A program made the translations under genes and the position numbers. Below are positions 308 to 27,657 of a stretch of 28,175 bases of DNA, one piece after another. Location of the stretch: the NCBI GenBank assembly GCA_031409655.1, contig JANNXQ010000126.1, positions 1-28,175 of the forward strand. Direction: 5' to 3'. The notes under the pieces are model-generated. The model had not been told where the DNA came from and searched no databases. It worked only from the letters and a program-made list of their open reading frames with translations. Position 1 is the first letter of the stretch, and each line of letters opens with the position of its first letter. This stretch comes from Chthoniobacteraceae bacterium (GTDB taxonomy: Bacteria > Verrucomicrobiota > Verrucomicrobiia > Chthoniobacterales > Chthoniobacteraceae).

Positions 308-2272
308 TCAGGCAACTTCGCGGATGGTCACATCGGCCGTGAGCAGGGAGAGCTGGATCACGTCCAGCGGAGCGTTGGTCAGCGGGGCAGTGAAGCCGAG
401 GGACTTGAAGCTGCCGATCCGCTCGGAGACGAAGCCGAAGTGATCGCCCGCGCCACCACTGCCGATGACGATGCCGCCGATCTGGATGGCGGCGATCCGC
501 GCGACGATGGCGCCACCGCCCGCGCCGAAGAGGGCATCATTGACGCCAAAGCCGTCGGCGCCCGTGTCCTCCGCACCCGCGCTCACGCTGCTCGCGATCC
601 AGTCGCCGCCGACCTTGATCGTGCCGATCTGCGCGTCGCCATTGAGCGGGTTGAGATCGACATCGAAGCCCGCGAGGATCTGCGCGCTCTCGACCCGACC
701 ACCGACGGTGACGCTGGCGATGGCCACGTCCGTCGAAGTCTGCACAGCCTTGCCCCGCGCGCTGATGACCACGGCGGTGCCGGCATTGCCGATCAGGCTG
801 CCTTTCACGGTGATCGAGCCAAGGTCATCCTCGGCGCGGATCGACCCGCTCTGGGTGAGCGCGCCGACGCTGGTGTCGGTGCCGGCGATGATGGAGCCGC
901 CCACCGTGACGCTGAGAATGCGCTGAGCCTGGATGTAGCCAGTGCCATTCGCGGTATCCGCGCCGGTGACGCTGCCGCCCACGAGGTCGCGGCCGATTTT
1001 CACCGCGCCGATGGTGCCATCATTCGCCACGATCTTCCCCGTGCTGCTCGCCGCGCCCCCGATGATGGAGCCGCCGATCGTGACGCTCGCGATATTTCCC
1101 GCGGGGGCTTCGATGATGCCTGAAATCCCGGAGGTGCCGGCCCGCAGGTCGCCGCCGATTTTCACCGCCCCGATGTCCCCGCCGCTCTTGATCTCGCCAG
1201 TTTCAAAGTCGCTCCCACCAATCACTGACCCACCGATGGTCACACTGGTGATCTTCCCGGCGGCGGCAATGATCGATCCGCTCGAGCCACCGGCGTCGCC
1301 TTTCAAATCCCCACCGACCACCACGGGTCCGAGGCCACCGTTAGCCGAGACGGCTCCGGCGAAGTTGCTCTTCCCGCCCAGGACGGAGCCGCCGATGCTG
1401 ATGCTGGCCAGGGTGGTGAGGCTCTCGACCAAGCCCGAGCGCGGCGCGCTCCCACCGCGGAGATCGCCGCCGATTTTCACCGCTCCCGTAGCCAGGGTGC
1501 TGAGGATCTGGCCGCTGTCGTCACCGGCATCACCGACGATCGAGCCGCCCACGCTGACGCTCGCGATCTTGCCGAGGCTCTGGATTTTCCCGGAGCTCAG
1601 CCCCTGTCCGCCGAGGATGTGGCCACCGACTTTCACCGCGCCGATATTTCCGCTGGCGAAAATCTGGCCGCTATTCGTCGTCGCGCCGCCGCGCAGATCG
1701 CCGCCAATGGTCACCGCCCCGATGTTACCGTCCACGCCGTCATTGACGAAGAATTGGGCGCCGACGACGTCGGCCTTCACCACGAGCGCACCGACCGCGC
1801 CATTGAAACTACTGATCAGGCCGCCGCCCAGCCCCTGAGTGGCGACGCCAAAGCGCCCCATGGAGCGCACCGTCAGCGTCTTCAAGGCCTGGACCGCGGG
1901 ATCACTGTCGCCCGCGTTGATCGCCCCGAGATCACCGGGGATGGTGACGTTTCCGAGATCATGGTTGATCGACTGAATCCCGCCGACGTTCACGAGGCCG
2001 TCGCCAGTGGCGCTCTTCTTCACGGTGAAGACCACGTTCGCTCCGTCGAAGATGCCGCCGCCGCCGCTGAAATCGACCAGTTGCAATTGCTCACCCAAGC
2101 CAGCAGCGACGGTGAAGAATTGGCCGGCGGTCAAGGTGCCCTTGGAGACTTTCATGGTCACGATGTCGCCATCGACGTCGGTATAGGTGGCGGTCTTGGG
2201 ATCGACCGCGCTGATGAGGACGGCCGGAGCGATCCGGGCTTCGAGAGGTTCGATGGATGGGGTGATGTTCAT
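308..2272 (-). CDS. LExRIAPA-leader Gly-rich beta-solenoid repeat protein, paralog A (654 aa)
   Basis: Start reassigned from 2491 to the ATG at 2272 (MNITPSIEPLEARIAPA) by analogy with the paralogs. YTDVDGD N-cap, about 11 ~26-aa repeats, C-cap with GGDW, DHFGFV and terminal LSLLTADVTIREVA. Confidence 0.9.
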   Translation of the reverse strand: MNITPSIEPLEARIAPAVLISAVDPKTATYTDVDGDIVTMKVSKGTLTAGQFFTVAAGLGEQLQLVDFSGGGGIFDGANVVFTVKKSATGDGLVNVGGIQSINHDLGNVTIPGDLGAINAGDSDPAVQALKTLTVRSMGRFGVATQGLGGGLISSFNGAVGALVVKADVVGAQFFVNDGVDGNIGAVTIGGDLRGGATTNSGQIFASGNIGAVKVGGHILGGQGLSSGKIQSLGKIASVSVGGSIVGDAGDDSGQILSTLATGAVKIGGDLRGGSAPRSGLVESLTTLASISIGGSVLGGKSNFAGAVSANGGLGPVVVGGDLKGDAGGSSGSIIAAAGKITSVTIGGSVIGGSDFETGEIKSGGDIGAVKIGGDLRAGTSGISGIIEAPAGNIASVTIGGSIIGGAASSTGKIVANDGTIGAVKIGRDLVGGSVTGADTANGTGYIQAQRILSVTVGGSIIAGTDTSVGALTQSGSIRAEDDLGSITVKGSLIGNAGTAVVISARGKAVQTSTDVAIASVTVGGRVESAQILAGFDVDLNPLNGDAQIGTIKVGGDWIASSVSAGAEDTGADGFGVNDALFGAGGGAIVARIAAIQIGGIVIGSGGAGDHFGFVSERIGSFKSLGFTAPLTNAPLDVIQLSLLTADVTIREVA

Positions 2273-2325
2273 GGCGGATTGTGTTGGGGTTTTCAAGGGG
2301 TGGATTTGAGTGGGTGGATTTACCG

Positions 2326-2400: not shown

Positions 2401-2438
2401 GAGAGTGCCGATGCTGGGAAAAATGCAGACCCCGCCCG

Positions 2439-2619: not shown

Positions 2620-2849
2620 ATGAAATCGAAACGCTTCCCGAGCGGCCTCTACGCCCTGGAATCCCTTGAGTCTCGCATCGCTCCGGCGACCATCATCTTC
2701 ACCGCCCTGGGCGATTCCGGCACGGGCACCGATGGCAACGGCGGCGGCATCTTCAACACCGTGGTCACCCCGGTCCTCCTCAACGGCTCGAAAGCCCTCT
2801 TCAACACCCCCCGACCCTGCCGCAAATCCGAGGCCTCTTCACGCCGTAG
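2620..2849 (+). pseudogene. Internally deleted, frameshifted sister of the Pmp-like gene B
   Basis: MKSKRFPSGLYALESLESRIAPATIIFTALGDSGTGT resembles the gene B N-terminus MSTTRFPRGLYAPELLEARIAPAT. It joins directly to DGNGGGIFNTVVTPVLLNGSKALFNT, like the last turn of gene B (NDGGGVFFNVGTTTLPGTLVKGN). A frame change at the C6 run (2807-2812) gives TLPQIRGLFTP-TAG (2847-2849). Confidence 0.75.
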
Positions 2850-2854: not shown

Positions 2855-2870
2855 AAGCCCGCGCGGGCTT
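2855..2870. terminator. 16-bp perfect palindrome between convergent stops
   Basis: AAGCCCGCGCGGGCTT lies between the remnant's TAG (2849) and gene B's TAA (2869-2871), which it overlaps. Terminator function is inferred only. Confidence 0.35.
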
Positions 2871-4686
2871 AGGCGCTACCGATGTTCGGGCTGGCGGCGG
2901 CGCTGTTGCCTTTGACGAGGGTGCCGGGGAGCGTGGTCGTGCCCACGTTGAAAAAGACTCCGCCGCCGTCGTTGGCGAAGTTGCCGGTGACGGTGCTCCT
3001 GGCGATGACCACGGGGCCGTCCGAGATGCGCAGCCCGCCGCCGCGCCCGCCGGGCCCGGCGATATTGCCCAGCACTTTCACGCTCGTCAGCGTGCCCGCG
3101 CCGGCGAGGGTCGCGCCGCCGCCGCTGCTCCCGGCCACATTTCCCTGGAGGAGGGTGCCGGTGAGGGTGAAGTCGCCGAGATTTGTGACGAGATAGACGC
3201 CGCCGCCTTGGCCGGTGCGGGCCACATTCCCGAGGAAGCGGTCGCCCTTGCTGGTGAAGTCGCCGTCGCCGTTGGCAAGGATGCCGCCGCCGCTGTTCTG
3301 CGCGACATTGGCCTGGAAGAGATTCCCGCTCAGGCGGGCGGTGACGGCGCCGGCCCCCACGCCCTGCAGGAGGAGCGCGCCGCCGGAGGCGAGGGCGCGG
3401 TTGTCGGTGAATTTATTGCCGCTGAGATCGAGGACGCTGCCGCCCCCGGCCGTGATGGCCCCCCCGCTGTCCCCGGCGGTATTGCCGCTCAGGGTCGAGC
3501 TTTTCAGGGTGAAGACGGTGCGGGCGATCAGGTCCAGGGCGCCGCCCGAGTTCCCGGCGCTATTCCCCAGGAAGCTGGAGCTGGCGATGCTCAGGGTGAG
3601 GGACAGGACGCCGCCATGGCCGAGGGCGCCGCCGAAGCCCGCAGAGGCATTGCCGGAGAAAAGGGTGCTGGCGATCTGCACGACGCTGGGGCCCTCAAAG
3701 TAGAGCGCGCCGCCGCTGCTGGCGGCGCGATTACTGAGGAAGCGCGAGCTGGCGATGGAGACGGTATCGGCGAGGTCGCTGGCCAGCGCGCCGCCGCGCC
3801 CGGCGGAATTCCCGGCAAAGGTGGTGCCCGAGATGGCGAGGTGCCCGTCGTCGAGATAGAGGCCGCCCCCATTGAAGCCGGCGATATTGCCGGTCAGGAC
3901 GCTCTTTTTCAAAAGCGCCCGCCCCGTATCCGCCGTCTGGAGGGCGAGTCCGCCGCCGCTCCCGCCAGTGGTGCTATTATTCGCGATGAGGCTGGAGTCG
4001 ATGAGGATCACGGACTTCGCCCCCGCCGTGCCGATGTAGGCGCCGCCGCCTTTGCTGACCGCGGTGTTATTGGCGATGGTCGTCTTCACGAGGGTGACGC
4101 CCGCGTCGCCCACGAGGTAGAGCCCGCCGCTGATGTTGGCCGAGGAATTGTGGACGATGGTGCTGCTGAGGATGGCGATCTTCCCGATCGTGCTCGCCCA
4201 GACCCCGCCGCCGGTGATGTCCGCGGTGCTGCTGCGGATGACCACGCTTTTCAAAGTGAGCGGCTCGCGGCTGCTGATGGCCCCGCCATTGCCGGTCGTC
4301 TTCCCGTCCGTGAGGGTGAGGCCGGAGATGGTGGCGGGCTGGAGCGCGGCGGTGCCGTCGTCGATGTCGAAGATGCGCGAGAGGTTGTTGCCGGAGATGG
4401 TGAGGAGGTCGATGCCGGGGCCCTTGATGGTGAGGATGTCCAGGATGTCGAGATGCGCGCCGGCAAGGGTGATGGTGCCGGGGAGCCCGTCAGGGAAGAG
4501 CGCGGCGGCAAAGGTGATGGTGTCCGCGCCCGGCCGCGCGTTCGCTTCGACGATGGCTTCGCGCAGGGTCCGGGCCGCGCCCCCGCCATCGTCCAGCAAG
4601 CTGGTCACGGTGAAGGTGGCGGGAGCGATGCGGGCTTCGAGGAGTTCAGGGGCGTAGAGCCCGCGGGGGAAGCGAGTGGTGGACAT
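2869..4686 (-). CDS. LExRIAPA-leader beta-helix protein with CSLREA-like motif and Pmp-type GGA(I/L)/FxxN repeats, gene B (605 aa)
   Basis: Start reassigned to the ATG at 4686. TFTVTSLLDD...TLREAIVEAN is CSLREA-like. Many FxGNxA...GGA(L/I) repeats (FAGNSAGRGGAL, FLSNRAASSGGAL, FSGNASAGFGGAL) resemble chlamydial polymorphic membrane protein passenger repeats. No autotransporter barrel follows. Confidence 0.88.
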   Translation of the reverse strand: MSTTRFPRGLYAPELLEARIAPATFTVTSLLDDGGGAARTLREAIVEANARPGADTITFAAALFPDGLPGTITLAGAHLDILDILTIKGPGIDLLTISGNNLSRIFDIDDGTAALQPATISGLTLTDGKTTGNGGAISSREPLTLKSVVIRSSTADITGGGVWASTIGKIAILSSTIVHNSSANISGGLYLVGDAGVTLVKTTIANNTAVSKGGGAYIGTAGAKSVILIDSSLIANNSTTGGSGGGLALQTADTGRALLKKSVLTGNIAGFNGGGLYLDDGHLAISGTTFAGNSAGRGGALASDLADTVSIASSRFLSNRAASSGGALYFEGPSVVQIASTLFSGNASAGFGGALGHGGVLSLTLSIASSSFLGNSAGNSGGALDLIARTVFTLKSSTLSGNTAGDSGGAITAGGGSVLDLSGNKFTDNRALASGGALLLQGVGAGAVTARLSGNLFQANVAQNSGGGILANGDGDFTSKGDRFLGNVARTGQGGGVYLVTNLGDFTLTGTLLQGNVAGSSGGGATLAGAGTLTSVKVLGNIAGPGGRGGGLRISDGPVVIARSTVTGNFANDGGGVFFNVGTTTLPGTLVKGNSAAASPNIGSA

Positions 4687-4741: not shown

Positions 4742-6520
4742 TCAGCTCACCTCCAGGATGCGCACGTCGTTGGTGAAGGGGATGGCGATGTTTTGATTCC
4801 CGGTGGCGGCAAGGAGCGAGGCGACGAAGCCGAAGCTCTTGAAGCTGCCGATCTGCTGCGCGACGAAGCCGTAGTGATCCCCCGCGCCGAGCGAACCGGT
4901 GACGTCGCCTTTGATCGCGATGCTGGCGATGCGCGCGATGAGACTCGTGTCGCCAAGGGTCTGGAGCGTGTCGCCAAGGCCGAAGCCTGCACCGCCGCTG
5001 TCCTGCGCCCCAGCGACGAGACTGCTCGCGGCCCAGTCGCCGCCCACCGCCACGGCGCCGATCGAGGCGTCAGCGTTTTCCCCATCCAACTTGAACTCGA
5101 ACCCGGCGAGGATTTGCGCAAAGCGCACGTCGCCTTTCACCGTGATGCTGGCGATGGCGGTGTCGAAGCCAACCGTGGGTTTCACAGCCTGGCCCTTGGC
5201 GAGGATTAAGACGGGGTTGTCGCTATTGCCGACGATGCTCCCGCCGATTTTCACCGGGCCGAGATCCGCGCTGGCGATGATCGCTCCCGAGTTCGCCACG
5301 AAGCTCGAACTGGCGTTGCTGCCGGCGATGATCGAGCCGCCGAGGGTGACGCTCGCGATGTGCCGGGCGAAGATGGCGCCGGAGATGAAGACAAAGGCGC
5401 TCCCGGCGGCGCTCCCGCCGATCAAATCGCCGCCGATGCTCACATGCCCCAGGTCGGCGGCGGCGGAGACGATCCCGCTCCCCCCGCCCGCACTTCCAAT
5501 GACGCTGCCGCCGATCTTCACATTGCCCATCCCGAGCGTACCGAGGATGCGTCCGCTCTCGTCTCCAGAGCCGCCGGTGAGATTTCCGCCGACGAAGACA
5601 TGGCCACGATTGCCGAGCGCATCGTTCACGCCGCTCGTCTCCCCCGCGCCGCCAGTGATGCTCCCGGCGACCTTCACATTTCCCATGGTGCCGCTGCTGA
5701 AGACCCAGCCGCTATCCGCGCCCGCGCCGCCGACGATGTCGCCACCCACCATTACTACGCCCATCGCCGTAGCGCTTTCGATTCGCCCGCTGCCCTGCCC
5801 GGCACCACCGATCACGTCGCCTCCGAGGTTCACGACGCTCATCGTGGTCCCGGCAAAGACGAGCCCGCTATCATCCCCAGAGCCGCCGCGCACGTCGCCG
5901 ACGATCCGCACGGGACCGATAGCTCCGCCGCCGAGGATGCGCCCGCTATTCGCCGCCGTGCCGCCCGTGAGATCGCCGCCGATGAAGAGGGAGCCGATGC
6001 CACCGCTCGTGGCGAGCGAGGCGTCGGTGAAATCGCCCGCCACCTTCAATGCCCCGAGTTTGCCCACGATGGTGCTGGCGAGATCCGTCGCGCCGGTGAG
6101 GAGGCCGAGCGTGCCCATGCTGCGCACCGAGAGCAGATTCAGCCCGGAATCCGCGCCCGTGACGAGATCGCCGACATCGATCCTGCCGAGGTCGCCCTTC
6201 ACCACCACCTGATCGAGATCGACGCCCGCGGCATCGATGAAGCCGACGTGCGCGAGCCCATCGCCGCCGGGTTTCTTCGTCACGGTGAAGACGATCTTTG
6301 CCCCGTCGAAAGCCGGCGCAGTGAGATCGAGCTTCGCGAGCTGCCCCGCCGGGCCGCCGCCGATGAAGGTGAGATCGGTGGCGACCAGGGGTGCGACGGC
6401 GGCCCCGGCTTTGGTGGCGGTGATTTTCACGCTGTCGCCGTCGAGGTCGGTGTAGGTGATGAAGACGGCGGCGGGAGCGATGCGGGCTTCGAGGGGTTCG
6501 AGGGAGGTGGTGGTTTTCAT
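4742..6520 (-). CDS. LExRIAPA-leader Gly-rich beta-solenoid repeat protein, paralog C (592 aa)
   Basis: MKTTTSLEPLEARIAPA, YTDLDGD, about 9 repeats, C-cap GGDW/DHYGFVA, ends FTNDVRILEVS. Confidence 0.92.
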   Translation of the reverse strand: MKTTTSLEPLEARIAPAAVFITYTDLDGDSVKITATKAGAAVAPLVATDLTFIGGGPAGQLAKLDLTAPAFDGAKIVFTVTKKPGGDGLAHVGFIDAAGVDLDQVVVKGDLGRIDVGDLVTGADSGLNLLSVRSMGTLGLLTGATDLASTIVGKLGALKVAGDFTDASLATSGGIGSLFIGGDLTGGTAANSGRILGGGAIGPVRIVGDVRGGSGDDSGLVFAGTTMSVVNLGGDVIGGAGQGSGRIESATAMGVVMVGGDIVGGAGADSGWVFSSGTMGNVKVAGSITGGAGETSGVNDALGNRGHVFVGGNLTGGSGDESGRILGTLGMGNVKIGGSVIGSAGGGSGIVSAAADLGHVSIGGDLIGGSAAGSAFVFISGAIFARHIASVTLGGSIIAGSNASSSFVANSGAIIASADLGPVKIGGSIVGNSDNPVLILAKGQAVKPTVGFDTAIASITVKGDVRFAQILAGFEFKLDGENADASIGAVAVGGDWAASSLVAGAQDSGGAGFGLGDTLQTLGDTSLIARIASIAIKGDVTGSLGAGDHYGFVAQQIGSFKSFGFVASLLAATGNQNIAIPFTNDVRILEVS

Positions 6521-6551: not shown

Positions 6552-8504
6552 TCAGAGTTCGAAGTTGATGAAGCCGGGCTGGCCGGGCGGGAAGATGGCG
6601 GCGGTGCCGAAGACCCCGGCGTCGGCGAGGCCGTTGCCGCCGTCGAAGTTCACCGATTTCTGGAAGACCGCGCCGAGGAAGGGGCCGGCGGGGAAGGCCA
6701 CGCGGAGGCTGTCGTTGGCGTCGCCGAAGAGCACCGAGACGGTGCCGGCAAAGAGGGTGCGGCCGCGCGTCAGGGTGCTGGCATTCTCGATGTCGAGGGC
6801 GTCGCTGCCGCCCGCGAGTCCGGCCTCAAAGGGACCGCGGAAGGTGGCATCGTTGACGAGGATCTCGTCGGGCCCACCCGCGCCGAAGAAGCGCGCGGCA
6901 CCCCGCACTTCGAGACCGCTGATGGCGAAGGTGCCGCCGAGCGTCGCGCCGCTGCTAAAGAGGAGCGTGCCGCCGATCTGCAAAGCCGCGAGACGTCCGG
7001 TGAGCTCGACGTTCGCCGCGGTGCCGCCGGTGATGAATTGCGCGTCGCCCGCGATCTTCCCAGAGGCGACCGTCACCTCCGCGTCGAAGGTGGTGCCGTT
7101 GTGTTCGAGCCGCAGGGTTCCGCCGACTTTGAACGCGCCGCTGGTGAGGACGTCCGTGCCGAGCGCGCCCCCGGTCGTCTTGATAGTGACGTCCTTGCCG
7201 ACACTGAGCGCGACGACGTTCACATCGAACAGCGCGCCCGTGGTGCCGGTCGCGAGCACGGAGCCCTTCACGGCGTAGGTGCCGATGTCGAGGTCGAGGC
7301 TGACGCTGTCGCCATCCAGCGCGATGTCGCGGCCGATGCGCGCGCTGGTGGCGCCGATCTCCATGCTCACCCCGCCCGTGGCCGAGGCGCGAATGCTGCC
7401 ACCGATGTCCATCGTGCCGCGGTTGAAGATCGTATTGGCGACAAAGGTGGCGTCGGTCGTGGTGCTGAAGTCGTGCTTCACGCGCAGTTCGCTCGAGCTG
7501 AAGACGTCATTGCGCGCGCTGCCACTGCCCACGCTGCCACTCGAAAGCAAGACCCCGCCGCCGATGCGGATGATGTCGGCGCTGATCGTATTCTTAAACG
7601 CGCCCGAGGCGTGCCCGATGAGGAGATCGCCCTTCACATCGAGGAGTGTGCCGGGGGTGATGTTCACCGTGTCGAGGTCGGCATCCGCCGCGGTATTCAC
7701 CGCGAGCGAGCCGAGCGTCACGCGACCGGTGCCTTTGCCGATGCTGATGACATCCACGCCGGCACCCGCCCTGATGTCGAGCTTGCCACCCACGCGCAGC
7801 GACGACTGCGGGGCGATCTCGATGGTGCTCGCCGCATCGCTGTCCTCGATGAGCAAGCCCTTGCCGATGTCGAGCAAGCGCGGGTTGATGACGATCTGCG
7901 CCGCGCCCGCCGCGCCGCCGTGATAATCCACGCCGCCGCGAATCTTGATCGCGCCGCCCTGGATGAAGAGCGTATCGATCCCATTGCCGCCCTGCACCGT
8001 GACGTTGCCGCCGACGGTCGCAAATTCCCCATTCACCGAACCGCCGCCGCCGCCATCGCCGGTCTGCAAATTCACATTCCCACCGACGCTCACGCGGTAG
8101 CCTTCGAGAAAGCACGTATCGAATCCGGCACCACCCGTGTAGTTGAGATTCCCGCGGATGCTGGGGCTGCTGAGGAAGACGCCATTGTTGCCCGCGCCGG
8201 CGTTGATCGTGAGATTCTTTTTGAAGCTGACGTTGGTGAAGAAGGCGGTGTCGGCGTTGTTGCCGAAGTTCACCGTGACGTCGCCGGTGACGCCGGTGAG
8301 AAAGCCGAGCGCGGCTGGCGTGGCCGCGCCGATCTGAATGAGCGTGCCGGCGCTCCCGGTGATGGCCCACGTCTTCGCGTCGATCTGCTCGACGGTGAAG
8401 TTTGTGGCGTCCACGCCGCCGGTGAGGGTGAGCGCGCCATTCGCGAGAGTGGCGACGATGAGGCCCGCGGGGGCGATGCGGGATTCGAGGGGTTCGATGT
8501 TCAT
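6552..8504 (-). CDS. LExRIAPA-leader beta-solenoid protein of a distinct class, gene D (650 aa)
   Basis: MNIEPLESRIAPA followed by longer repeats with GxGxD turns (GGAGFD, GGNGID, AGAGVD, GAGGPD, AGGSD). Lacks the DxDGD N-cap and the family C-cap; ends FINFEL. Confidence 0.88.
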   Translation of the reverse strand: MNIEPLESRIAPAGLIVATLANGALTLTGGVDATNFTVEQIDAKTWAITGSAGTLIQIGAATPAALGFLTGVTGDVTVNFGNNADTAFFTNVSFKKNLTINAGAGNNGVFLSSPSIRGNLNYTGGAGFDTCFLEGYRVSVGGNVNLQTGDGGGGGSVNGEFATVGGNVTVQGGNGIDTLFIQGGAIKIRGGVDYHGGAAGAAQIVINPRLLDIGKGLLIEDSDAASTIEIAPQSSLRVGGKLDIRAGAGVDVISIGKGTGRVTLGSLAVNTAADADLDTVNITPGTLLDVKGDLLIGHASGAFKNTISADIIRIGGGVLLSSGSVGSGSARNDVFSSSELRVKHDFSTTTDATFVANTIFNRGTMDIGGSIRASATGGVSMEIGATSARIGRDIALDGDSVSLDLDIGTYAVKGSVLATGTTGALFDVNVVALSVGKDVTIKTTGGALGTDVLTSGAFKVGGTLRLEHNGTTFDAEVTVASGKIAGDAQFITGGTAANVELTGRLAALQIGGTLLFSSGATLGGTFAISGLEVRGAARFFGAGGPDEILVNDATFRGPFEAGLAGGSDALDIENASTLTRGRTLFAGTVSVLFGDANDSLRVAFPAGPFLGAVFQKSVNFDGGNGLADAGVFGTAAIFPPGQPGFINFEL

Positions 8505-10772: not shown

Positions 10773-10805
10773 AAGGAGTGAGTGGAGGGTTGAGGGTTGA
10801 GCGTT

Positions 10806-17540: not shown

Positions 17541-17562
17541 TTAGGCCAAGAACAACCCTGAT

Positions 17563-17850: not shown

Positions 17851-17925
17851 GTCAAACAAGGAAGCCGCCAAGAAGCGCATTGAGAACAAACCGGAGTTGA
17901 AGTCATTCCAGAATTCGCTCAACCA

Positions 17926-18336
17926 ATGAATACAATCAACTCCGGGCACAAATGGCCTAACCACGCGCCTCCTGATGATCGTCGCTTCACCGGCCTTTCG
18001 TGGTTCTGCGCATACTCGTCCTTCATCTTGCTTGGCCTCTATTTGCTTCTCGGACTCCACATTCGATTGGGTCTTGGCCATTGGCCGACTCCAATGTTCG
18101 AGAACTACACGGCTCCGTCGTTCCAAGCGCACATGGAGGTCGTCCGTCTTTTCCTTTTCGTTACCTGGTTCGTCATCGGGCCGGTGTGGCTCGCGTGTTT
18201 GCTCATCCGTCCGCTCCGTCCTAGTCCGCCTTGCATCATCGCATATCAACTCGCGACATTCGTCGGCGGGTATTTGCTCATCATTGCCGTTCTCGCGTTC
18301 GACCCAACAACTTTCTCAGCATGGTATCTCGACTAA
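17926..18336 (+). CDS. Hypothetical membrane protein (136 aa)
   Basis: Three hydrophobic segments, an HIRLGLGHWP loop and a DPTTFSAWYLD C-terminus, in AT-richer DNA. Confidence 0.7.
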   Translation: MNTINSGHKWPNHAPPDDRRFTGLSWFCAYSSFILLGLYLLLGLHIRLGLGHWPTPMFENYTAPSFQAHMEVVRLFLFVTWFVIGPVWLACLLIRPLRPSPPCIIAYQLATFVGGYLLIIAVLAFDPTTFSAWYLD

Positions 18337-18427
18337 ATGGTATTTCTCCAACAGCCGCAACGCCTATGCGCTGCAACTCGCGGGTGAATCCTCAACAGGA
18401 GCCGCTACCAATCCCCATTCCACGTCC

Positions 18428-20078: not shown

Positions 20079-21350
20079 CTAAACCTCCAGGATGCGCACG
20101 TCGTCGGTGAAGGGGAGGGCGATGTTTTGCGCGGCGGTGGCGAGCAGGAGCGGGGCGGTGAAGCCGAAGCTCTTGAAGCTGCCGATCTGCTGCGCGACGA
20201 AGCCGAAGTGATCGCCCGCGGAGAGCGAGCCGGTGACGTTGCCGCGGATCGTGATGCTGGCGATGGCGATGTCGAAACCGGTGGGCGGCTTCACAGCCTG
20301 CCCGTCCGCGGCGATGAGCACGGGATTCTCGCGGTTGCCGAAAATACTGCCGCCGATCTTCACCGGGCCGAGATCGCTTCCCGCGACGATCGCGCCGCAG
20401 AGGTCGAGCGTGCCGGTGCTGGCATCGGTGCCGGCGATGAGCGAGCCGCCGATGGTCACGCTGGCGATCCGGCCGGAGCTGCTCCTGACCATGCCCGAAT
20501 TAGACAGCGAGTCCGAGTCAGCGATGCTTCCGCCGATGAGGTCGCTGCCGATCCGCACGTGGCCGATTCCTTGGTTGGCATCCACCGCGCCGGTGGAGTT
20601 GCCGGCGCCGCCGACGACATCGCCGCCGATCTGCACATTCCCGAGGCCATTGCCGGAAATGTGGCCGCTGATATTGCCCGGGCCGCCGACGACGTCGCCG
20701 GCGATGCGCACATTGCCCGTGGCGCCGAGGCTCTAAATGCCGCCGCTGTTTAGCAGAGTGCCGCCGATGAGGTCGCCGCCGATAAAGATCGAACCGATCT
20801 GTCCATCCGCGCCGGGGCCGGGAGGGGTGGTCACGAAAATGTGGGCATCGGTGAAATCGCCGGCAACCTTCAGCGCGCCGAGCTTGCTGGTGATGGTGCT
20901 CTCGAGATTGCCCGAGCCGCCCTGGCTCACCAGGCCGAGCGTGCCCATGGCGCGCACCTGGAGCAGATTCAGCCCGGGGTCGTTGGCGGTGATGGTGTCG
21001 CCGGCGACGATGCGGCCGAGGTCACCTTTCACGATCACCTGATCGAGCGAGCGGTCGAAGGCATTGATGAAGCCGACGTGCGCCAGGCCATCACCGCCGG
21101 GTTTCTTCGTCACGGTGAAGACGATCTTCGCCCCGTCGAAGCCCGCTTCGGTCAGCGTGAGGGTGGCGAGCTGGCCGGTGGCGCCGCCGCCGACCAAGGC
21201 GAGGTCCGCGGCGTCGAGAGGAGGGGCGGCCGCGCCGGCCCGGCTGGCGGTGATTTTGACCAGGTCGCCGTCGAGATCCTGGTAGATGAACGAGACGGCG
21301 GCGGGGGCGATGCGGGATTCGAGGAGTTCGATGAATGGGTAGGCCTTCAC
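20079..21350 (-). pseudogene. LExRIAPA-leader repeat protein paralog G, interrupted by an in-frame TAG and lacking part of the C-cap
   Basis: Track ORFs 20733..21350 and 20079..20711 are in the same frame, joined as LLNSGGI*SLGATGNVRIAGD (TAG at 20733-20735). The C-cap lacks 75 residues relative to paralog C. Confidence 0.88.
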
Positions 21351-21383: not shown

Positions 21384-22883
21384 TCAGAGGGCTACTTCGC
21401 GCACGCGCAGGTCGCCGGTGGCGCCGACAAGTAGGCCGTTGAGGTCATTGGCCGTGCGAGGTGTGAGCGGGAAAGCAGCGCCGCCGACTTTGAACGAACC
21501 GATCTCCTGCGCGACGAAGCCGAAGTGATCGGTACCACCGACCGTGCCGCGCGCGGTGCCTTTGATCGTGATGCTGGCGATCTTCGAGGCGATCGTTGCC
21601 GAACCGCCGGCGATCTTTTGGTCGTCGCCTTCGCCAAAGAAATCGTTGCGCGCCGCAGTGGCGTCGTCCTGCACGCCAGCGATGAGATTGCTCGCGATCC
21701 AGTCGCCCGCGACGACCGCGCCGGTCTGCGCGTCGGCATTCACGGCCAGCAAATTGAAATCGTAGCCAGCTAGGATGTCGGCGAACTCCACGCGGCCGGT
21801 CACCGTGAGGCTCTTGATGGCCACGTCGCTGGTCGTGCCTTGCACGGCCTGGCCGCGCGCGGTGATCAGCACCGGATTCGCACTGTTCCCGATGATGCTG
21901 CCTTTGACGATGATCGCGCCAATGTCGTCCGCGACTTGGATGACGCCGCTCTGAAATACGCTGAAGCCTCCGCTTTCTCCGCCGGAGATGATCGAGCCGC
22001 CGACGGTCAGGCTTGCGAGGCGCTGGCCCAGAATCCGCCCCGAATAGGCAATCGAACCTCCATCCGCATCGGCACCCTTGATGTCGCCGCCGATTTTCAC
22101 CGGACCGATCGCGCCGACTGCGGAGATTTCACCGCTATTGCCCCCCGTACCCCCGAGGAGCGAGCCACCGACCGTGAGGCTGGCGATGCTCGAATTAGTC
22201 CCGATTTGCCCTGATGACGCACTAGAGCCGCCGGCGATGTCGCCACCGACTTTCACCGACCCGATCGCCCCGGTGCTGAAGATGCGCCCTCCGTCGCCGT
22301 CGGAACCGCCTATGAGTGAGCCGCCGATCGTGATCGAACCGATCTTTCCATCCAGCCCGCCCCCGACCGCGAGATAAGACTCCCGCATGCTGCCGACCAT
22401 TTTGAGGCTGCCGAGTGCGCCGTTTAGGTTACTGCTCAGCGAGCCGCCAGCCTGCTGAGTCGAAACGCCGAACTCCCCCATCGACTGCACGTTCAAGCCC
22501 TTCACCGCCGGCGTGCCGGTGCTCGCGTCGCCGGCGTCGATCTGCCCGAGGTCGCCGCGGATCGTGATGGTGCCGAGATCGAGCGCTGTGCCGCCGCCGT
22601 CCGTGCTCGCGTCGATGTAGCCGACGTTGGCGAGCCCGTCACCGCCCGCGGCAGTGCGCTTGGCAGTCACAGTCACGTTTGTGCCGGCGAAGACGGTTGC
22701 GTTGAGGCTGAAGTCGATGCGCCACGCTTCCTTGCCGAGTCCCTCGTCCACGACGGTGACGATGGCGGCGAGGTCGGCGTTGGTGCCTTTGCTGGTGGCG
22801 ATGGTGACGGCGTCGCCGTCCACGTCGGTGAATTTGAAGACGGCGGCGGGTGCGATGCGGGATTCGAGCGGTTCGATGTTCAT
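21384..22883 (-). CDS. LExRIAPA-leader Gly-rich beta-solenoid repeat protein, paralog H (499 aa)
   Basis: MNIEPLESRIAPA, FTDVDGD, about 5 repeats, C-cap DHFGFVA, ends TGDLRVREVAL. Confidence 0.92.
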   Translation of the reverse strand: MNIEPLESRIAPAAVFKFTDVDGDAVTIATSKGTNADLAAIVTVVDEGLGKEAWRIDFSLNATVFAGTNVTVTAKRTAAGGDGLANVGYIDASTDGGGTALDLGTITIRGDLGQIDAGDASTGTPAVKGLNVQSMGEFGVSTQQAGGSLSSNLNGALGSLKMVGSMRESYLAVGGGLDGKIGSITIGGSLIGGSDGDGGRIFSTGAIGSVKVGGDIAGGSSASSGQIGTNSSIASLTVGGSLLGGTGGNSGEISAVGAIGPVKIGGDIKGADADGGSIAYSGRILGQRLASLTVGGSIISGGESGGFSVFQSGVIQVADDIGAIIVKGSIIGNSANPVLITARGQAVQGTTSDVAIKSLTVTGRVEFADILAGYDFNLLAVNADAQTGAVVAGDWIASNLIAGVQDDATAARNDFFGEGDDQKIAGGSATIASKIASITIKGTARGTVGGTDHFGFVAQEIGSFKVGGAAFPLTPRTANDLNGLLVGATGDLRVREVAL

Positions 22884-22914
22884 GGGAGGTGGGGTGAGTT
22901 TGTGCGAGGGGAAA

Positions 22915-25900
22915 TCAGACTTCGCGGACGGTCACGTCGCGGGTGAGCAGCGAGAGTTCGATGACATCGCGGATGGGGCTATTGCCGAGGATGGCGGCGA
23001 TGCCGAGCGACTTGAAGGAACCGATGACGTGCGCGACGAAGCCGAAGTGGTCGGCGCCCTGCACGGTCCCGACGACGGCGCCCTTGATGCTGATCGACGC
23101 GATGCGCGCGATGACCGCGGTGCCGGGGAAGCTGCTCGGGATGTCGTCAAAATCGCCGAAGAGATTCGGCGCGCTCGGGTCGTCATCGACGATCACACCA
23201 GCCACCAGATCGCTCGCGGTCCAGTCGCCGCCGACCGTGACCGGGCCGATCGAGCCGGGACCGTGCACGGTCAGCGCCGGAGTGTAGCCGGCAAGAATCG
23301 ACGCGCGCTCGACTCGGCCGCCGATGCTGATGCTCTTGATCGCGAGATCGATGGTCGCATTCGCGGCGACGGTGGCCTGGCCGCTGGCCGTGATGATGAC
23401 CTTCGAAAGATTCGCCGCGGTCCCGTCGCCCACGTTGCCGATGAGGCTGCCTTTGACGCTCAGCGCGCCAATGTCGTTGCCGGCGCGGATCGAGGCGTTT
23501 CTGGTCAAAGCGCCGCCGGTGCTGTCGTCGATGCCGGCGATGACGGAGCCGCCGATGCTGACGCTCGCGATGCGGCCCGAGCTCTGGAGGTAACCCGTCG
23601 AGTCGAGCGTGGCCGTCGTGCCGGCGATGCTGCCGCCGATGAGATCGCGCCCGATCTTCACGGCGCCGAAATCGCCGCCCGTGATCTCCCCGGAAGAAAT
23701 ACTCGAGCCACCCACGAGCGAGCCGCCGATGCTGACGCTCGCAATCCCCACCGTGCCCCGCATCGAGGCGGTAGCGCCTCCTGAGCCGCCGAGCATGTCG
23801 TGTCCGATCTTCACCGGGCCAATGCGAGTGTCGCTGATGATTGCGCCGTCGAAGGAGCCGGCTCCGCCCACGAGCGAACCGCCGATGTTCACGCTCGCGA
23901 TACCGTCGCTCCCGTCGAGATAACCCGCACCCCCACCGCTGCCGCCGATCAGATCGTGGCCGATCTTCACCGCGGCCAGGGCGCCGACGAAAACAGAGCC
24001 GCTGAAAGATCCGGAGCCGCCGATCAACGAGCCGCCGATGGTGACGCTGGACGCCGCAACGTCGGTCTCGATTTCGGCCGAAGAATCGCCGGCCCCACCA
24101 TGCATGTTGTGGCCGATCGTGACCGGGCCGATGCTGCCGAGGGCGGCAATCTGGCCGCGCTGAGCCGTCGTGTCGTAGTCGCCGCTGCCGCCGAGGAGCG
24201 AGCCGCCGATCGAGAGGCTCGCGAGTTTGCCGGCGCTGTCGATTTTCCCCGACTCGTCGCCGGCACCGCCGGCGAGATCGTGGCCGACTTTCACCGCGCC
24301 GATGCCGCCGGTGCTGCCGCTGAAAATCTGGCCGCTCCTCATCCCGGCGCCGCCGAGGAGCGAGCCGCCGATGGTGATGTTGCCGACGCTCGTATTACCC
24401 GAGAGTCGGCCCGTGAAATCCGCGAGTCCCCCGATGACGTTGTGACCGATCTTGACCGCGCCGAGCGCGGCGCCGTCGGCATTGACGATGCCCCCGATGA
24501 GCGAGCCGCCGATGCTCACGGAGGCGATGCTCGTGCCGGTGTCGATGAAGCCAGTGCCGGCGACGCCCGCCTGGACGTGGTGGGCGATCCTGATCGCACC
24601 GATGCCCTGCGCCGTGGAGATGGTGCCGCTCGCCGCCGCACTCCCGCCGATGAGCGACCCGCCGATGCTCAGCGAGCCGAGCGCGCCGCTGATGGCGAGA
24701 CTCGCGCCGGCGATGTCCTGCCGCACCGAGAGCGCGCCGAGACTGCCGAGGATGTCGCCGCCGACGAAGGGCACGAAGCCCGCGACCGCCAGAGGCTGCG
24801 TGTCGAGGCCGAGCCGGCCGAACGTGCGGACATGGAGCGCCGCGAGGCCGCGCGTCGTGGAGACTGCGTCGCCTGCGGCGATTTGCCCGAGATCGCCGGG
24901 GACGGTGATGGTGCCGAGGTCGTCATCGGCGAGGATCGCGCCGATCTGCACGAGGCCATCGCCAGCCGCGGCGCGCTGGACGGTGACGGTGAGATTCACC
25001 CCCGCCGCGGCGAGCCCGGTGAGGTCGATGCGCTGGAGCTGCTGGGGAAAGGCGTTCGCGCCATCGACGGTGCCGTTGTCGAACTGGAAGACGGTATTGA
25101 CGTTGCCGGCGGTGAGCAGCGGCTTGGAAAGTCGCACCGTCACGCGGTCGCCGTCGCTGTCGGTGTAGGCCACGGTGCTGGCATTCACGAGCGTGGCTGG
25201 CGGGATCTGCGCGGGCAGGGAAAAGTCGATCGTCTTGCCGAGTTCGTGCGCTGCGAAGGTGAAAGCGAAGCTCTCGGTGAAAAAGCCGAGCGGCAGGCCG
25301 TCGTTGCCGGCGCCGGCGGTGAGCGCCACGGTGCGCGCGCCTATCTTGAGCGCGCCGATCTGCTCGGCGACGAAGCCGAAGCGGTCCACGTCGGAGAAGG
25401 ACGCCGGCGTGCCGAAGACCTGCCCCGCGATCGTGATGCTGCCGACCTTTGACCCGATCAGCGCCGACTCGCCGGCCTCGACGATCTTCGCGTCGTGCTC
25501 GTCGCCAAAGCGCACGTTGTCGGCATCCGCGCCGGCGCCGCCGGGCGCGTCGTCCGCGCCGAGATTGATCGCGCCCGCGATGATCGTGCTCGCGATCCAA
25601 TCGCCGCCGACACTCACCGCGCCGATCTGCGCGTCGGCATTGCGCGCCCCCAGCCCGCGGTCGTAGCCGGCGAAAATTTGCGCGAACTCGACACGTCCGC
25701 CGATTGAGATGCGACCGATCGCCACATCGGCGCGCGCGCTGGCCGCGAGCCCGGCCTGGCCTTGCGCGCTGATCGTGACGAACGATTCGCCCTGCGCACC
25801 GACATTGCCGATGAGCCCGCCCCGGACCGAGATCGCACCGATGTCCGCGCCGGAGCGGATCGTCCCGCTGCGCAACAAATCTCCCGTGCTGCCATCGGTG

Positions 25901-27657
25901 CCGGCGATGAACGAGCCGCCGATGGTGACGCTGTCGAAGCGCCCGGCGGATTCGATGAACCCGGAGCGCTCGAGCGTCGCCGCTCCGCCGACGCTGCCGC
26001 CGATGAGATCATGGCCGATGCGCACCGGGCCCAGGCTGCCCGCGGCGATGATCGCGCCGGTGACATCCGCCGCGCCGCTGCCGAGCGAGCCGCCGACGAG
26101 CGAACCGCCGATCGAGACGCTGGCGATCCGCGCGCCCGAGCGGAGGACGCCCGATTCATCCCCGCTGCCGCCGAGCAGATCGTGACCGATCTTCACCGCG
26201 CCCACGCCGCCGACGCCATTGACGAAGCCGCTGAAATTTCCGCTCCCGCCGACGAGCGAACCGCCGATGCTCACGCTCGTGATCGCGCCATCGCTCTCGA
26301 TCAACCCCGAGCCGACGCCGCTGCCGCCCGCCATGTCGTGGCCGATCGTCACCGCGCCGATGCTCGTCTCGCTGTCGAATCTCCCGCTCGTCAGTCCCGC
26401 TCCGCCGAGCAACGAACCGCCGATGCTGATCGCGCCGAGCGCCCCGACGCCACCGACGCGCGCCGATCCATCGCCCGCCCCGCCCTGCACATCGTGCCCG
26501 ACCTGAAACGAACCGATGCCGCCCTCCGCGAAGATTTGGCGAAAATGTCCGCCCGCCTGGTAATCGCCGTCGCCACCGAGCAGCGAGCCGCCGATCGCGA
26601 TGCTCGTGATCTTTCCGCCCGCGTCGATCTTGCCCGACTCATCGCCCGCGCCGCCCTTCACATCGTGCGCGATCTTCACTGGGCCGATGTCGGTGAAGCC
26701 GAGAATCCGCGCGCTGAAATCCCCAGCGCCACCAAGCAGCGAACCGCCGATGCTGATCGACGCCAGCTTGCCGCCCGCGCGGACGGTGCCGGAAGTCGCC
26801 GCGGTGCCGCCCTGGAGATTTCCCGCGATGCTCACCGCACCCATGCTGCCGTCGCTGACCACCCGCGCGCTGAGCGAACCGGAACCCCCGACCATCGAGC
26901 CGCCGATACTGACCGTGCCCAGGTTGCCGGTCGCATCGATCCGCCCCGAGCCGTCGCCGTCGCCGCCGATCAGATCGCGGCCGATCTTCACCGGGCCGAT
27001 GTCGCCCCCGGTGCTGATCGATCCGCTGTTGCCCAGCGCGCCCCCGATGAGCGAGCCGCCGATGGTGATGCTGCCGATCTTCGCGTCCGCGGCCACAGCC
27101 GCGGTGACGTCGATTTGCGCATCCTTGATATCCTCGGCCACGCGCAGTGCGCCGAGCGCGCCGCGGATGTCGCTCTTCAGTCCGGCGACGAGCGAATCGG
27201 TGGCGTCGCCGTAGCGCCCCATCGAACGCACGCTCAGCAACTCGATCGCCCGCGTGGCCGTGTTCGCGTCGCCCGCGTCGATCTCATTGAGATCGCCCCG
27301 CACCGTGATCGCGCCGACATCCACCCCCTGCGCATTGATGTAGCCGACCGCCGCGAGCCCATCGCCCGCGCCTGCCTTGACCACGCTGAAGGTGAGGTCC
27401 TCGCCGGCGAACCCAGGCAGCGTGAGATCGACAAAGACGAGTTGCTGGCCGCCGAGGGCATTGGCCGCGTTGAAGACAAAGCTGTCGCCGAAATCGCCAT
27501 TCGGCCCATTGGTGAAGACGAAGGGGCCGCCGGAAGTTTTCACCGTCACCGCGTCGCCATCGACGTCGGTGTAAGTGAAGGTGGTCGCATTCACGAGCAC
27601 CGCCGCGGGGGCGATGCGGGCTTCGAGCGGTTCGATGGTGGGCGGATTGGTTTTCAT
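22915..27657 (-). CDS. LExRIAPA-leader repeat protein paralog I, two complete units fused (1580 aa)
   Basis: MKTNPPTIEPLEARIAPA. Two N-caps (YTDVDGD, YTDSDGD) and two C-caps (GGDW...DRFGFVA; GGDW...DHFGFVA); ends LSLLTRDVTVREV. Confidence 0.93.
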   Translation of the reverse strand: MKTNPPTIEPLEARIAPAAVLVNATTFTYTDVDGDAVTVKTSGGPFVFTNGPNGDFGDSFVFNAANALGGQQLVFVDLTLPGFAGEDLTFSVVKAGAGDGLAAVGYINAQGVDVGAITVRGDLNEIDAGDANTATRAIELLSVRSMGRYGDATDSLVAGLKSDIRGALGALRVAEDIKDAQIDVTAAVAADAKIGSITIGGSLIGGALGNSGSISTGGDIGPVKIGRDLIGGDGDGSGRIDATGNLGTVSIGGSMVGGSGSLSARVVSDGSMGAVSIAGNLQGGTAATSGTVRAGGKLASISIGGSLLGGAGDFSARILGFTDIGPVKIAHDVKGGAGDESGKIDAGGKITSIAIGGSLLGGDGDYQAGGHFRQIFAEGGIGSFQVGHDVQGGAGDGSARVGGVGALGAISIGGSLLGGAGLTSGRFDSETSIGAVTIGHDMAGGSGVGSGLIESDGAITSVSIGGSLVGGSGNFSGFVNGVGGVGAVKIGHDLLGGSGDESGVLRSGARIASVSIGGSLVGGSLGSGAADVTGAIIAAGSLGPVRIGHDLIGGSVGGAATLERSGFIESAGRFDSVTIGGSFIAGTDGSTGDLLRSGTIRSGADIGAISVRGGLIGNVGAQGESFVTISAQGQAGLAASARADVAIGRISIGGRVEFAQIFAGYDRGLGARNADAQIGAVSVGGDWIASTIIAGAINLGADDAPGGAGADADNVRFGDEHDAKIVEAGESALIGSKVGSITIAGQVFGTPASFSDVDRFGFVAEQIGALKIGARTVALTAGAGNDGLPLGFFTESFAFTFAAHELGKTIDFSLPAQIPPATLVNASTVAYTDSDGDRVTVRLSKPLLTAGNVNTVFQFDNGTVDGANAFPQQLQRIDLTGLAAAGVNLTVTVQRAAAGDGLVQIGAILADDDLGTITVPGDLGQIAAGDAVSTTRGLAALHVRTFGRLGLDTQPLAVAGFVPFVGGDILGSLGALSVRQDIAGASLAISGALGSLSIGGSLIGGSAAASGTISTAQGIGAIRIAHHVQAGVAGTGFIDTGTSIASVSIGGSLIGGIVNADGAALGAVKIGHNVIGGLADFTGRLSGNTSVGNITIGGSLLGGAGMRSGQIFSGSTGGIGAVKVGHDLAGGAGDESGKIDSAGKLASLSIGGSLLGGSGDYDTTAQRGQIAALGSIGPVTIGHNMHGGAGDSSAEIETDVAASSVTIGGSLIGGSGSFSGSVFVGALAAVKIGHDLIGGSGGGAGYLDGSDGIASVNIGGSLVGGAGSFDGAIISDTRIGPVKIGHDMLGGSGGATASMRGTVGIASVSIGGSLVGGSSISSGEITGGDFGAVKIGRDLIGGSIAGTTATLDSTGYLQSSGRIASVSIGGSVIAGIDDSTGGALTRNASIRAGNDIGALSVKGSLIGNVGDGTAANLSKVIITASGQATVAANATIDLAIKSISIGGRVERASILAGYTPALTVHGPGSIGPVTVGGDWTASDLVAGVIVDDDPSAPNLFGDFDDIPSSFPGTAVIARIASISIKGAVVGTVQGADHFGFVAHVIGSFKSLGIAAILGNSPIRDVIELSLLTRDVTVREV

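What the first reader, a model, noticed from the sequence alone, without database searches (positions are those of the whole stretch)
308..27657. Arrays of leader-tagged, variable-length beta-solenoid proteins: candidate uncharacterised extracellular fibre or surface-coat system
Seen: seven genes (eight units) share one plan of leader, DxDGD N-cap, ~26-aa repeat (I/V)GG(S/D)(L/V)xGGxGxxSGxIxxxxxIGxV, and a C-cap ending in TxDVxxxEV. By hand count the repeat number is about 5 (G, H), 9 (C), 11 (A) and 21 (F). The genes are co-oriented, mostly with 27-33 nt gaps, and two unrelated bodies (B, D) carry the same leader. Known: alternating small/hydrophobic Gly-rich repeats form beta-solenoids, as in curli, adhesins and ice-binding proteins, and DxDGD loops often bind Ca2+. 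Inference: these are interchangeable rod subunits of different lengths, co-exported and possibly co-assembled, with B and D as accessory or tip components. I do not recognise a characterised family for the caps, but novelty cannot be established without a search.
Basis: partly seen in the sequence, partly recalled or inferred. Interest (0 to 1): 0.85.

Follow-up and report, generated by a model that had tools for sequence, protein, structure and literature searches.

The report
Length-matched paired beta-helix surface rods
This bacterium carries a row of related, unannotated genes whose glycine-rich repeat proteins are predicted to fold into rods of gene-specific length that likely zip together in antiparallel pairs of equal length, and likely leave the cell through a little-studied export machine that reads their shared N-terminal tag.

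Summary
Observation confirmed: seven genes (eight units) share an ExLExRIAPA leader, a DxDGD N-cap, 26-aa coils and a C-cap. G is broken by a real in-frame stop. The family has no Pfam/NCBIfam match, about 2,000 clusters at 50% identity, and occurs patchily in Chthoniobacterales and some Planctomycetia. AlphaFold2 gives a beta-helix (pLDDT 94); the closest fold is the Marinomonas ice-binding domain, without its Ca/ice turn. The interchangeable-fibre idea is not favoured. H is predicted as a closed antiparallel side-by-side homodimer (0.81, best control 0.00), N-cap on the partner's C-cap. Independently, in 55 natural two-unit proteins the units match in length (r 0.98, median difference 13 aa, against 134 aa for equally diverged separate genes), and none of 331 proteins has three units. 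The leader resembles the planctomycete export motif and the daptide RRE-recognition motif. It co-occurs with an RRE/site-2-protease/MFP/TolC cassette (18 of 19 leader-positive, 0 of 25 leader-negative genomes). This scan had noted that exporter before on other DNA; look-ups found no note on this cargo family. The rods' biological role is untested.

The parts
22915..27657 (-). Gene I, 1580 aa: leader plus two complete modules fused in frame (cap-to-cap spans 640 and 618 aa); no leader at the internal junction; likely a single-chain antiparallel pair
21384..22883 (-). Gene H, 499 aa: leader, N-cap, 5 regular coils, C-cap; predicted antiparallel homodimer
20079..21350 (-). Gene G: decayed paralogue of C (about 5 coils), in-frame TAG at 20732-20734 and about 75 aa missing from the C-cap
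10806..13607 (-). Gene F, 933 aa: leader, N-cap, 21 coils, C-cap
8532..10772 (-). Gene E, 746 aa: leader, N-cap, 13 regular coils plus several short irregular coils, C-cap; sister of F in the C-cap tree
6552..8504 (-). Gene D, 650 aa: leader plus a different body with ~24-aa coils and RTX-like GGxGxD turns; likely another beta-solenoid, lacks both caps
4742..6520 (-). Gene C, 592 aa: leader, N-cap, 9 coils, C-cap; AlphaFold2 beta-helix, pLDDT 94.3, pTM 0.92
2869..4686 (-). Gene B, 605 aa: leader plus PMP-repeat body (PF02415, TIGR01376), one of seven B-type full-length genes in the genome
2620..2810 (+). Relic of a B-type gene: leader and first residues joined to a B-type C-terminal piece (end approximate)
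308..2272 (-). Gene A, 654 aa: leader, N-cap, 11 coils, C-cap
27605..27633 (-). Example of the leader motif ExLExRIAPA (gene I); the LExRIAPA core lies at 22846, 21301, 13525, 10738, 8467, 6471, 4619, 2223 (minus) and 2665 (plus)

Best explanation
These genes encode paralogous proteins predicted to fold as capped beta-helical rods whose length is set by the number of 26-residue coils, and each rod likely pairs side by side and antiparallel with a rod of the same length after likely export by a leader-reading, type-I-like machine encoded elsewhere in the genome. Shown in sequence: the leader, caps, variable coil number, length matching of fused units, and co-occurrence of leader, module and exporter cassette. 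Predicted: the beta-helix; the dimer, zipped along the conserved GG(S/D) turn ladder, with each N-cap (including the DxD loop and the GDGL motif) closing on the partner's C-cap. Inferred: two-unit genes such as I are single-chain versions of the dimer; the leader is bound by the PqqD/RRE-like domain and cut by the fused site-2 protease, and the chain passes through MFP adaptors and a TolC-like channel. Inferred function: the two-stranded rod (roughly 6-15 nm at 4.8 A per coil, general knowledge) is a rigid extracellular strut and dimerisation module; where it ends a larger protein (Calx-beta, FG-GAP, DUF4394, PMP) it would hold two passenger domains at opposite ends.
For: Fold: pLDDT 94.3, pTM 0.92, leader unstructured. 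Dimer of H: score 0.81, best of 3 controls 0.00; the mark was reached by 20 of 30 proteins solved as pairs of one chain and 1 of 23 solved as single chains (counts hold only roughly, own alignment used); runs agree in at least 93% of contacts, partner pLDDT at least 89. The interface maps to the GG(S/D) turn of every coil, D20-D22, 75-86, 442-449, 466-472 and 484-490. No like structure by sequence or Foldseek at E<=0.001, so recall of a solved complex is unlikely. Independent of folding: 55 two-unit proteins have matched spans (214-840 aa, r 0.976, median difference 13 aa, 47 of 55 within 30 aa) at median 45% cap identity, whereas separate single-unit pairs at 40-49% identity differ by 134 aa (12% within 30); length changes of units 1 and 2 correlate across orthologous fusions (r 0.62, 189 non-independent pairs); 0 of 331 proteins have three units. 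The I junction folds with fixed geometry, pTM 0.89. Bulky His/Arg at the interface position occur in 670 of 1325 D-type and 52 of 1409 S-type coils, in adjacent coils only 11 of 1465 times, as a knob-and-hole zipper would need. Export: no hydrophobic signal; leader absent from 10 of 10 internal junctions; leader in 16 of 16 module-positive and 0 of 20 module-negative family genomes; RRE-M50-MFP homologue at 390 bits or more in 18 of 19 leader-positive and 0 of 25 leader-negative genomes (GAF-MFP similar); leader genes directly upstream of the cassette in G352, G509, G557; HExxH and NPxxxxDG intact; N-domain PqqD-like at 0.95; daptide RRE-site-2 proteases act on leaders with ELExMEAP.
Against: Fold and dimer are predictions, for one paralogue; coordinates could not be inspected, so fold-back of the I junction is inferred from contact lists. 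Length matching could partly be inherited from tandem duplication (the sister unit is the best hit in 4 of 25 fusions), and the fusions are related to each other. G340 has 20 leaders but no cassette match. The leader genes next to the cassette are non-module cargo; the window array is on another contig than the cassette (C287; TolC-like gene on C90). No energiser was found: a full-length secondary SecA_DEAD is missing in 9 of 19 leader-positive genomes and no ABC gene is a conserved part of the cassette. Genomes are kin; 5 of the 25 module-negative family genomes were not listed and not tested. No data on expression, location or ligand.
Confidence: 0.6

Rival explanations
1. The antiparallel pair forms between proteins on different cells, so the family is a homophilic adhesin set like antigen 43, with rod length and sequence as a self/non-self code.
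For: The predicted geometry is that of trans adhesion dimers; Ag43 beta-helices aggregate cells through head-to-tail dimers (PMC8993888, passages). 19 module-bearing ORFs in this genome span 255-807 aa, and repertoires differ between genomes.
Against: Two-unit fusions with a short linker would close the pair within one chain. No membrane anchor was seen in any leader protein. Lengths in the genome are not more evenly spaced than random (5 close pairs against 7 expected, p 0.35). Repeats are old (53% DNA identity within genes), not hypervariable.
Confidence: 0.17
2. One reading: rods of different length are interchangeable subunits that stack end to end into a fibre or coat, with B and D as tips.
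For: C-cap and N-cap have a fixed geometry in the natural fusion (pTM 0.89); some structure alignments run across the junction; genes are co-oriented with short gaps. Staggered antiparallel pairing of unequal rods could in principle extend a fibre.
Against: Given two copies the predictor made a closed symmetric side-by-side dimer. End-to-end stacking gives no reason for matched unit lengths or for a limit of two units. B-type genes occur without module genes.
Confidence: 0.12
3. Monomeric ligand-binding beta-helices (ice, mineral or glycan binding, like MpIBP region IV), diversified by coil number for avidity.
For: Best structural match is MpIBP region IV (Z 22.5, rmsd 3.3 A, 282 aligned; next Z 17.4); shared UxU-GGxUxG core.
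Against: The GTGND Ca2+/ice turn is absent (0, 0, 1 and 1 loose matches in A, C, F, I); the most conserved face is used by the predicted dimer; monomers would not explain length matching.
Confidence: 0.07
4. The leader is not an export signal for this cassette; the proteins use another route or stay inside, and the co-occurrence reflects shared ancestry.
For: G340 lacks the cassette; no energiser identified; the motif is below the cut-offs of PF07595 and NF012209.
Against: Presence splits within genera (g150 5 of 7, g157 1 of 2) together for leader, module and, apart from G340, cassette; synteny in two families; other leader proteins carry extracellular domains; motif-bearing planctomycete proteins were recovered in the envelope-rich fraction (PMC8567305).
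Confidence: 0.04

Closest known systems
MpIBP/MpAFP region IV, Marinomonas primoryensis ice-binding beta-helix (PDB 3P4G; PMC6891781 and PMC3492233, passages read)
   Same: Closest fold (Z 22.5, rmsd 3.3 A, 282 aligned, 18% identity); one repeat per coil; shared UxU-GGxUxG core.
   Different: 26-aa coils in S/D doublets instead of 19; GTGND Ca2+/ice turn replaced and a 7-residue Gly loop added; dedicated caps; N-terminal leader instead of a C-terminal T1SS signal; predicted dimer.
Antigen 43 self-associating autotransporter (PMC8993888, passages read)
   Same: Beta-helical surface protein forming head-to-tail dimers; paralogous variants.
   Different: No Sec signal or beta-barrel translocator; no sequence match; pairing along a glycine ladder with reciprocal cap contacts; variable coil number; natural single-chain pairs.
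Planctomycete extracellular / LEPR-XLL N-terminal motif (PF07595, NF012209; LxLExLExRxxP in Tuwongella, PMC8567305, passages read; Studholme 2004 seen only as cited there)
   Same: ExLExRxxP core near the N-terminus, no hydrophobic stretch, on many large surface-type proteins.
   Different: Near-invariant RIAPA ending; below both HMM cut-offs; the same genome also has a classical-type leader beside a SecA_DEAD cassette on C17.
Secondary SecA_DEAD + Peptidase_M50/HlyD + HlyD + GAF/HlyD (+OEP) locus (Kamneva et al. 2015, PMC4452313; abstract, passages and part 3 of 7 read)
   Same: Same M50-HlyD, HlyD, GAF-HlyD and OEP components, no ABC transporter.
   Different: The cassette that tracks this leader has no SecA_DEAD gene in it, and 9 of 19 leader-positive genomes have none; the passages read name no substrates or leader.
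Daptide RRE-site-2 protease MpaP/DapP (NF041824; bioRxiv 10.1101/2023.03.08.531785, passages read)
   Same: RRE fused to an intramembrane protease that removes a leader with ELExMEAP; the cassette protein matches NF041824 at E 6e-50.
   Different: Below cut-off (170 of 300 bits), fused to an MFP, and the likely substrates are 400-3300 aa proteins rather than peptides.
Curli CsgA (PDB 8C50)
   Same: Secreted Gly-rich beta-solenoid with variable repeat number.
   Different: Poor superposition (Z 12.6, rmsd 9.7 A); both ends capped; predicted closed dimer rather than open stacking.

Membership tests
MpIBP region IV-type ice-binding beta-helix | Beta-helix with one repeat per coil and UxU-GGxUxG core | tested here: met
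MpIBP region IV-type ice-binding beta-helix | 19-aa repeat with xGTGND Ca2+-binding, Thr/Asx ice-binding turn | tested here: not met
   26-aa coils; loose GxGND matches 0, 0, 1, 1 in A, C, F, I
MpIBP region IV-type ice-binding beta-helix | Ice binding | not testable with these tools
   needs thermal hysteresis or ice-affinity assay
Self-associating autotransporters (Ag43) | Sec signal peptide and C-terminal beta-barrel translocator | tested here: not met
   no hydrophobic leader; no Pfam or NCBIfam hit; C-terminal part modelled as continued beta-helix
Self-associating autotransporters (Ag43) | Antiparallel beta-helix dimer | tested here: met
   prediction only: 0.81 against best control 0.00; mark reached by 20 of 30 true pairs and 1 of 23 single chains
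Self-associating autotransporters (Ag43) | Dimer bridges two cells | not testable with these tools
   needs aggregation assay
Curli (CsgA/CsgB) | Curlin repeat family match | tested here: not met
   no Pfam or NCBIfam hit at E<=0.05
Curli (CsgA/CsgB) | Uncapped solenoid stacking into an open fibre | tested here: inconclusive
   closed dimer predicted; higher-order assembly not tested
Planc_extracel PF07595 / LEPR-XLL NF012209 | HMM score over the curated cut-off | tested here: not met
Planc_extracel PF07595 / LEPR-XLL NF012209 | ExLExRxx(P/L) motif near the N-terminus without hydrophobic core | tested here: met
   (median offset 11.5 aa in 34 called genes of this genome)
Kamneva SecA_DEAD/T1SS-like locus (likely exporter) | M50-HlyD, HlyD, GAF-HlyD and OEP genes, no ABC transporter | tested here: met
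   all four contiguous in 11 genomes; outside the window
Kamneva SecA_DEAD/T1SS-like locus (likely exporter) | Secondary SecA_DEAD gene in the locus | tested here: not met
   absent from the leader-tracking cassette and from 9 of 19 leader-positive genomes
RRE-dependent leader recognition (daptide MpaP-like) | PqqD/RRE-like domain fused to an intact site-2 protease | tested here: met
RRE-dependent leader recognition (daptide MpaP-like) | RRE binds this leader and the protease cuts it | not tested
   no docking or assay was run
Ca2+-binding DxDGD loops | Bound Ca2+ | not tested
   D25, D27, D29 invariant in 61 sequences and at the predicted interface; no ligand modelling

The most novel reading that the evidence does not exclude
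A bacterial length-coded pairing system: each paralogue closes both cap contacts only with a rod of its own coil number, so a tandem array of genes gives a set of non-cross-reacting antiparallel connectors of defined length, exported by a RiPP-like leader-reading secretion machine and used as rulers, cross-linkers or a cell-cell self-recognition code.
Probability: 0.2. Interest if true: 0.9.

Novelty: new variant of a known kind. Interest (0 to 1): 0.74.

Why it matters
It defines a large unannotated family (2,070 clusters at 50% identity, E<=1e-10) with a testable design rule: repeat number is free between genes but matched between partners. That would be a natural, tunable antiparallel dimerisation rod of interest for repeat-protein evolution and design. 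The family is also a compact cargo (H is 499 aa) for testing the open question of how planctomycete-type LExR leaders are exported, and it points to a cassette variant with neither ABC transporter nor secondary SecA.

Tried and rejected
Pfam and NCBIfam: no family for the modules or D. PDB by sequence: best E 0.053. Foldseek: none at E<=0.001 for either model; the N-cap was not folded or searched alone, so its fold is untested. ESM Atlas gave only unnamed clusters. Invertible switch between B and the plus-strand relic: no inverted repeat there. Hypervariable DNA repeats: no 78-nt tandem arrays, 53% identity within genes. Stop in G as assembly error: rejected (one study, possibly the source samples). 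Promoter/terminator scan at chance level; no Rfam hit. No RNA holder listed. Even spacing of lengths in the genome: not found (p 0.35); length matching of adjacent separate genes only weak (7 pairs, median 60 aa, p 0.04). A first fusion count with strict motif anchors kept only 5 proteins and was redone with HMM anchors. The covariation script gave only tail and length statistics. The C-cap tree is the quick tree, the careful search did not finish. Docking of the leader on the RRE-protease was not run and stays open. A phylum-wide sample gave 0 of 300 other genomes but held only 8 of the same order and none of the family. Literature: 10 searches (terms LEPR-XLL; PF07595/Planc_extracel; MpAFP region IV; M50+HlyD+GAF+TolC+DUF4347; SecA_DEAD+T1SS; S2P+MFP+RRE+adhesin; daptide; Chthoniobacteraceae+beta-helix+adhesin; Verrucomicrobia+beta-solenoid; antiparallel beta-helix dimers) listed no paper on this family; the library lacks most subscription journals, and no supplements were read (Kamneva S2 Table and Supplementary Table 9 of PMC8567305 may list cargo proteins).

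Full report
Setting. The window is contig C126 of a 6.85 Mb, 94.9% complete genome. Named homologues come from Chthoniobacteraceae/Chthoniobacterales and Gemmataceae MAGs. The best DNA holders are freshwater-sediment metagenomes of one study.

Observation. Nine minus-strand genes carry LExRIAPA near their start. A, C, E, F, G, H and I share N-cap, coils and C-cap; I has two units. Coils are 26 aa and alternate between an S-type (VTIGGSLxGG) and a D-type (VKIGGDxxGG). G is decayed: in-frame TAG at 20732-20734, also present in contigs of three runs, and a C-cap deletion. B is a PMP-repeat protein. D shares only the leader with C by BLAST but has ~24-aa coils with RTX-like turns.

Family. No Pfam, NCBIfam or PDB sequence match. 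C has 846 homologues among 7,992 candidates scored; the C-cap profile finds 2,070 clusters at E<=1e-10. This genome has 19 ORFs with a complete module, spans 255-807 aa, some at the C-terminus of larger proteins, among 38 leader hits. The C-cap was found in 16 of 41 same-family genomes and 3 of 259 others of the order, and in 4 of 251 genomes of the class of a Gemmataceae carrier, that carrier included. In a quick tree the window paralogues are spread over old subfamilies; H groups with a Gemmataceae copy (97) and the last cap of I with another (90), and the two lie in the same order there, a lead for transfer that was not tested further.

Fold. AlphaFold2 on C (61 sequences): pLDDT 94.3, pTM 0.92, one coil per repeat, residues 1-16 without structure. 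Foldseek found nothing at E<=0.001. VIA-align put MpIBP region IV first (Z 22.5, rmsd 3.3 A, 282 aligned; next 17.4). Its published repeat, XGTGND-XUXU-GGXUXG-XUX (PMC6891781, passages), shares the UxU-GGxUxG core, but the Ca2+/ice turn is missing here. It is a look-alike, not a member.

Assembly. The junction of I (C-cap 1 to N-cap 2; 82 rows, 10 of them real junctions) folded with pTM 0.89, so the caps have a fixed relation. Two copies of mature H scored 0.81 against a best control of 0.00; the mark was reached by 20 of 30 proteins solved as pairs of one chain and 1 of 23 solved as single chains; runs agreed in at least 93% of contacts, partner pLDDT at least 89. The contacts are symmetric about G266 and run antiparallel along the GG(S/D) turns, with the DxD loop and GDGL motif of one N-cap on the partner's C-cap. 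One chain's C-terminus thus lies by the other's N-terminus, which suggests that two-unit genes are fold-back dimers and predicts equal unit lengths. The prediction held: 25 direct fusions gave r 0.98 and median difference 16 aa, against 108 under permutation (0 of 20,000); with more sequences, 55 two-unit proteins gave r 0.976, median 13 aa, 47 of 55 within 30 aa, over spans of 214-840 aa. Sister caps are only 37-61% identical (median 45%), and separate genes at 40-49% identity differ by 134 aa. Three fusions differ by more than 80 aa besides P0305 (684/598, 747/662, 840/659), so the rule has exceptions. None of 331 module proteins has three units. Bulky residues at the ladder position avoid adjacent coils (11 of 1465; about 113 expected from their frequency, my calculation). 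These results favour closed, length-matched pairs over an open fibre of interchangeable parts. Common descent from tandem duplication may add to the match, and the fusions are not independent.

Export. The leader is (I/L)ExLExRIAPA, median 11.5 residues from the start, with no hydrophobic core, and is missing at 10 of 10 internal junctions. It matches the Tuwongella motif LxLExLExRxxP, proposed as an export signal (PMC8567305, passages), though below the PF07595 and NF012209 cut-offs. In 44 other genomes (the 19 C-cap carriers, 20 of the 25 family non-carriers, 5 further order members) it is all-or-none: 16 of 16 family carriers, 0 of 20 non-carriers. Clustering the neighbours of leader genes exposed a cassette of GAF-MFP, small MFP, RRE-like/M50/MFP fusion and TolC-like gene, contiguous in 11 genomes and directly behind leader genes in G352, G509 and G557. 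The fusion has a homologue at 390 bits or more in 18 of 19 leader-positive genomes (58-81% identity in 15 of 16 family members; G340 is the exception) and in 0 of 25 leader-negative ones, four of which have only a ~200-bit paralogue. Its protease motifs are intact, its N-domain is PqqD-like, and it resembles the daptide leader peptidase, whose substrates carry ELExMEAP (bioRxiv 2023.03.08.531785, passages). Kamneva et al. described the locus with a secondary SecA_DEAD and, in the parts read, no substrate; the variant here lacks that gene, so the energy source is unknown. I noted this link before consulting the scan's notes; several earlier notes reach the same exporter reading on other DNA and are not independent support. 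Look-ups by sequence and by words found no note on the solenoid family or dimer. Binding of the leader to the RRE domain was not modelled.

Mechanism and limits. Likely course: the leader is read and cut at the inner membrane, the chain exits through the MFP/TolC conduit, folds to a capped beta-helix and zips with an equal-length partner into a two-stranded rod that serves as strut or bivalent linker (8 of 153 leader-bearing single modules have a passenger over 100 aa in front). Whether pairs form on one cell or between cells, how rods are held on the surface, and whether DxDGD binds Ca2+ are open. Nothing here shows expression.

Verdict. Real, unannotated, a new variant of secreted self-associating beta-helices. 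Confidence in the full explanation 0.6; interest 0.74.

Noticed in passing
window 2620-2810 (+): Internally deleted relic of a B-type leader gene, facing B and divergent from A.
   Followed up: partly
window 14319-19912 (+): PSCyt1/DUF1549/LamG/DUF1553 gene, two small membrane-like ORFs (17563-17850, 17926-18336) and a DUF1501 gene split the array; GC drops to about 60% at 17-19 kb.
   Followed up: no
window 13725-13755: Perfect 9-nt tandem repeat (3.4 copies) in the non-coding stretch upstream of F.
   Followed up: no
window intergenic gaps, e.g. 22884-22914, 10773-10805: Short C/A-rich spacers without a Shine-Dalgarno sequence precede the genes.
   Followed up: no
L080 (G000:C17:1-19217): Second cassette with secondary SecA_DEAD, TolC-like gene and a giant DUF11/SdrD protein bearing a classical planctomycete-type leader; a third, partial cassette on C295 holds an ECF sigma fusion. 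Two leader classes may sort cargo between exporters.
   Followed up: partly
L082 (G000:C179:10190-18167): Large cyclophilin-domain proteins flank a module gene; cyclophilin-like neighbours recur next to leader genes in 7 genomes, a possible folding helper.
   Followed up: no
L002:9956-16382: A Gemmataceae MAG has an H-like and an I-like gene side by side (59% and 53-58% identity), a lead for transfer between phyla.
   Followed up: partly
G000:C230:20262-30214: Array of five B-type PMP-repeat leader genes plus a short leader fragment, without module genes.
   Followed up: partly
L078, L059, L033, L023, L083: A conserved pair of large leader genes of unknown family (about 1100-2900 aa) recurs across genomes and is the pair found beside the exporter; possible dedicated components or anchors.
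   Followed up: no
L105-L107: A divergent cassette copy preceded by a DUF3467-like small gene and, in G509 and G567, a methyltransferase-like gene and three similar ~290-aa genes.
   Followed up: no
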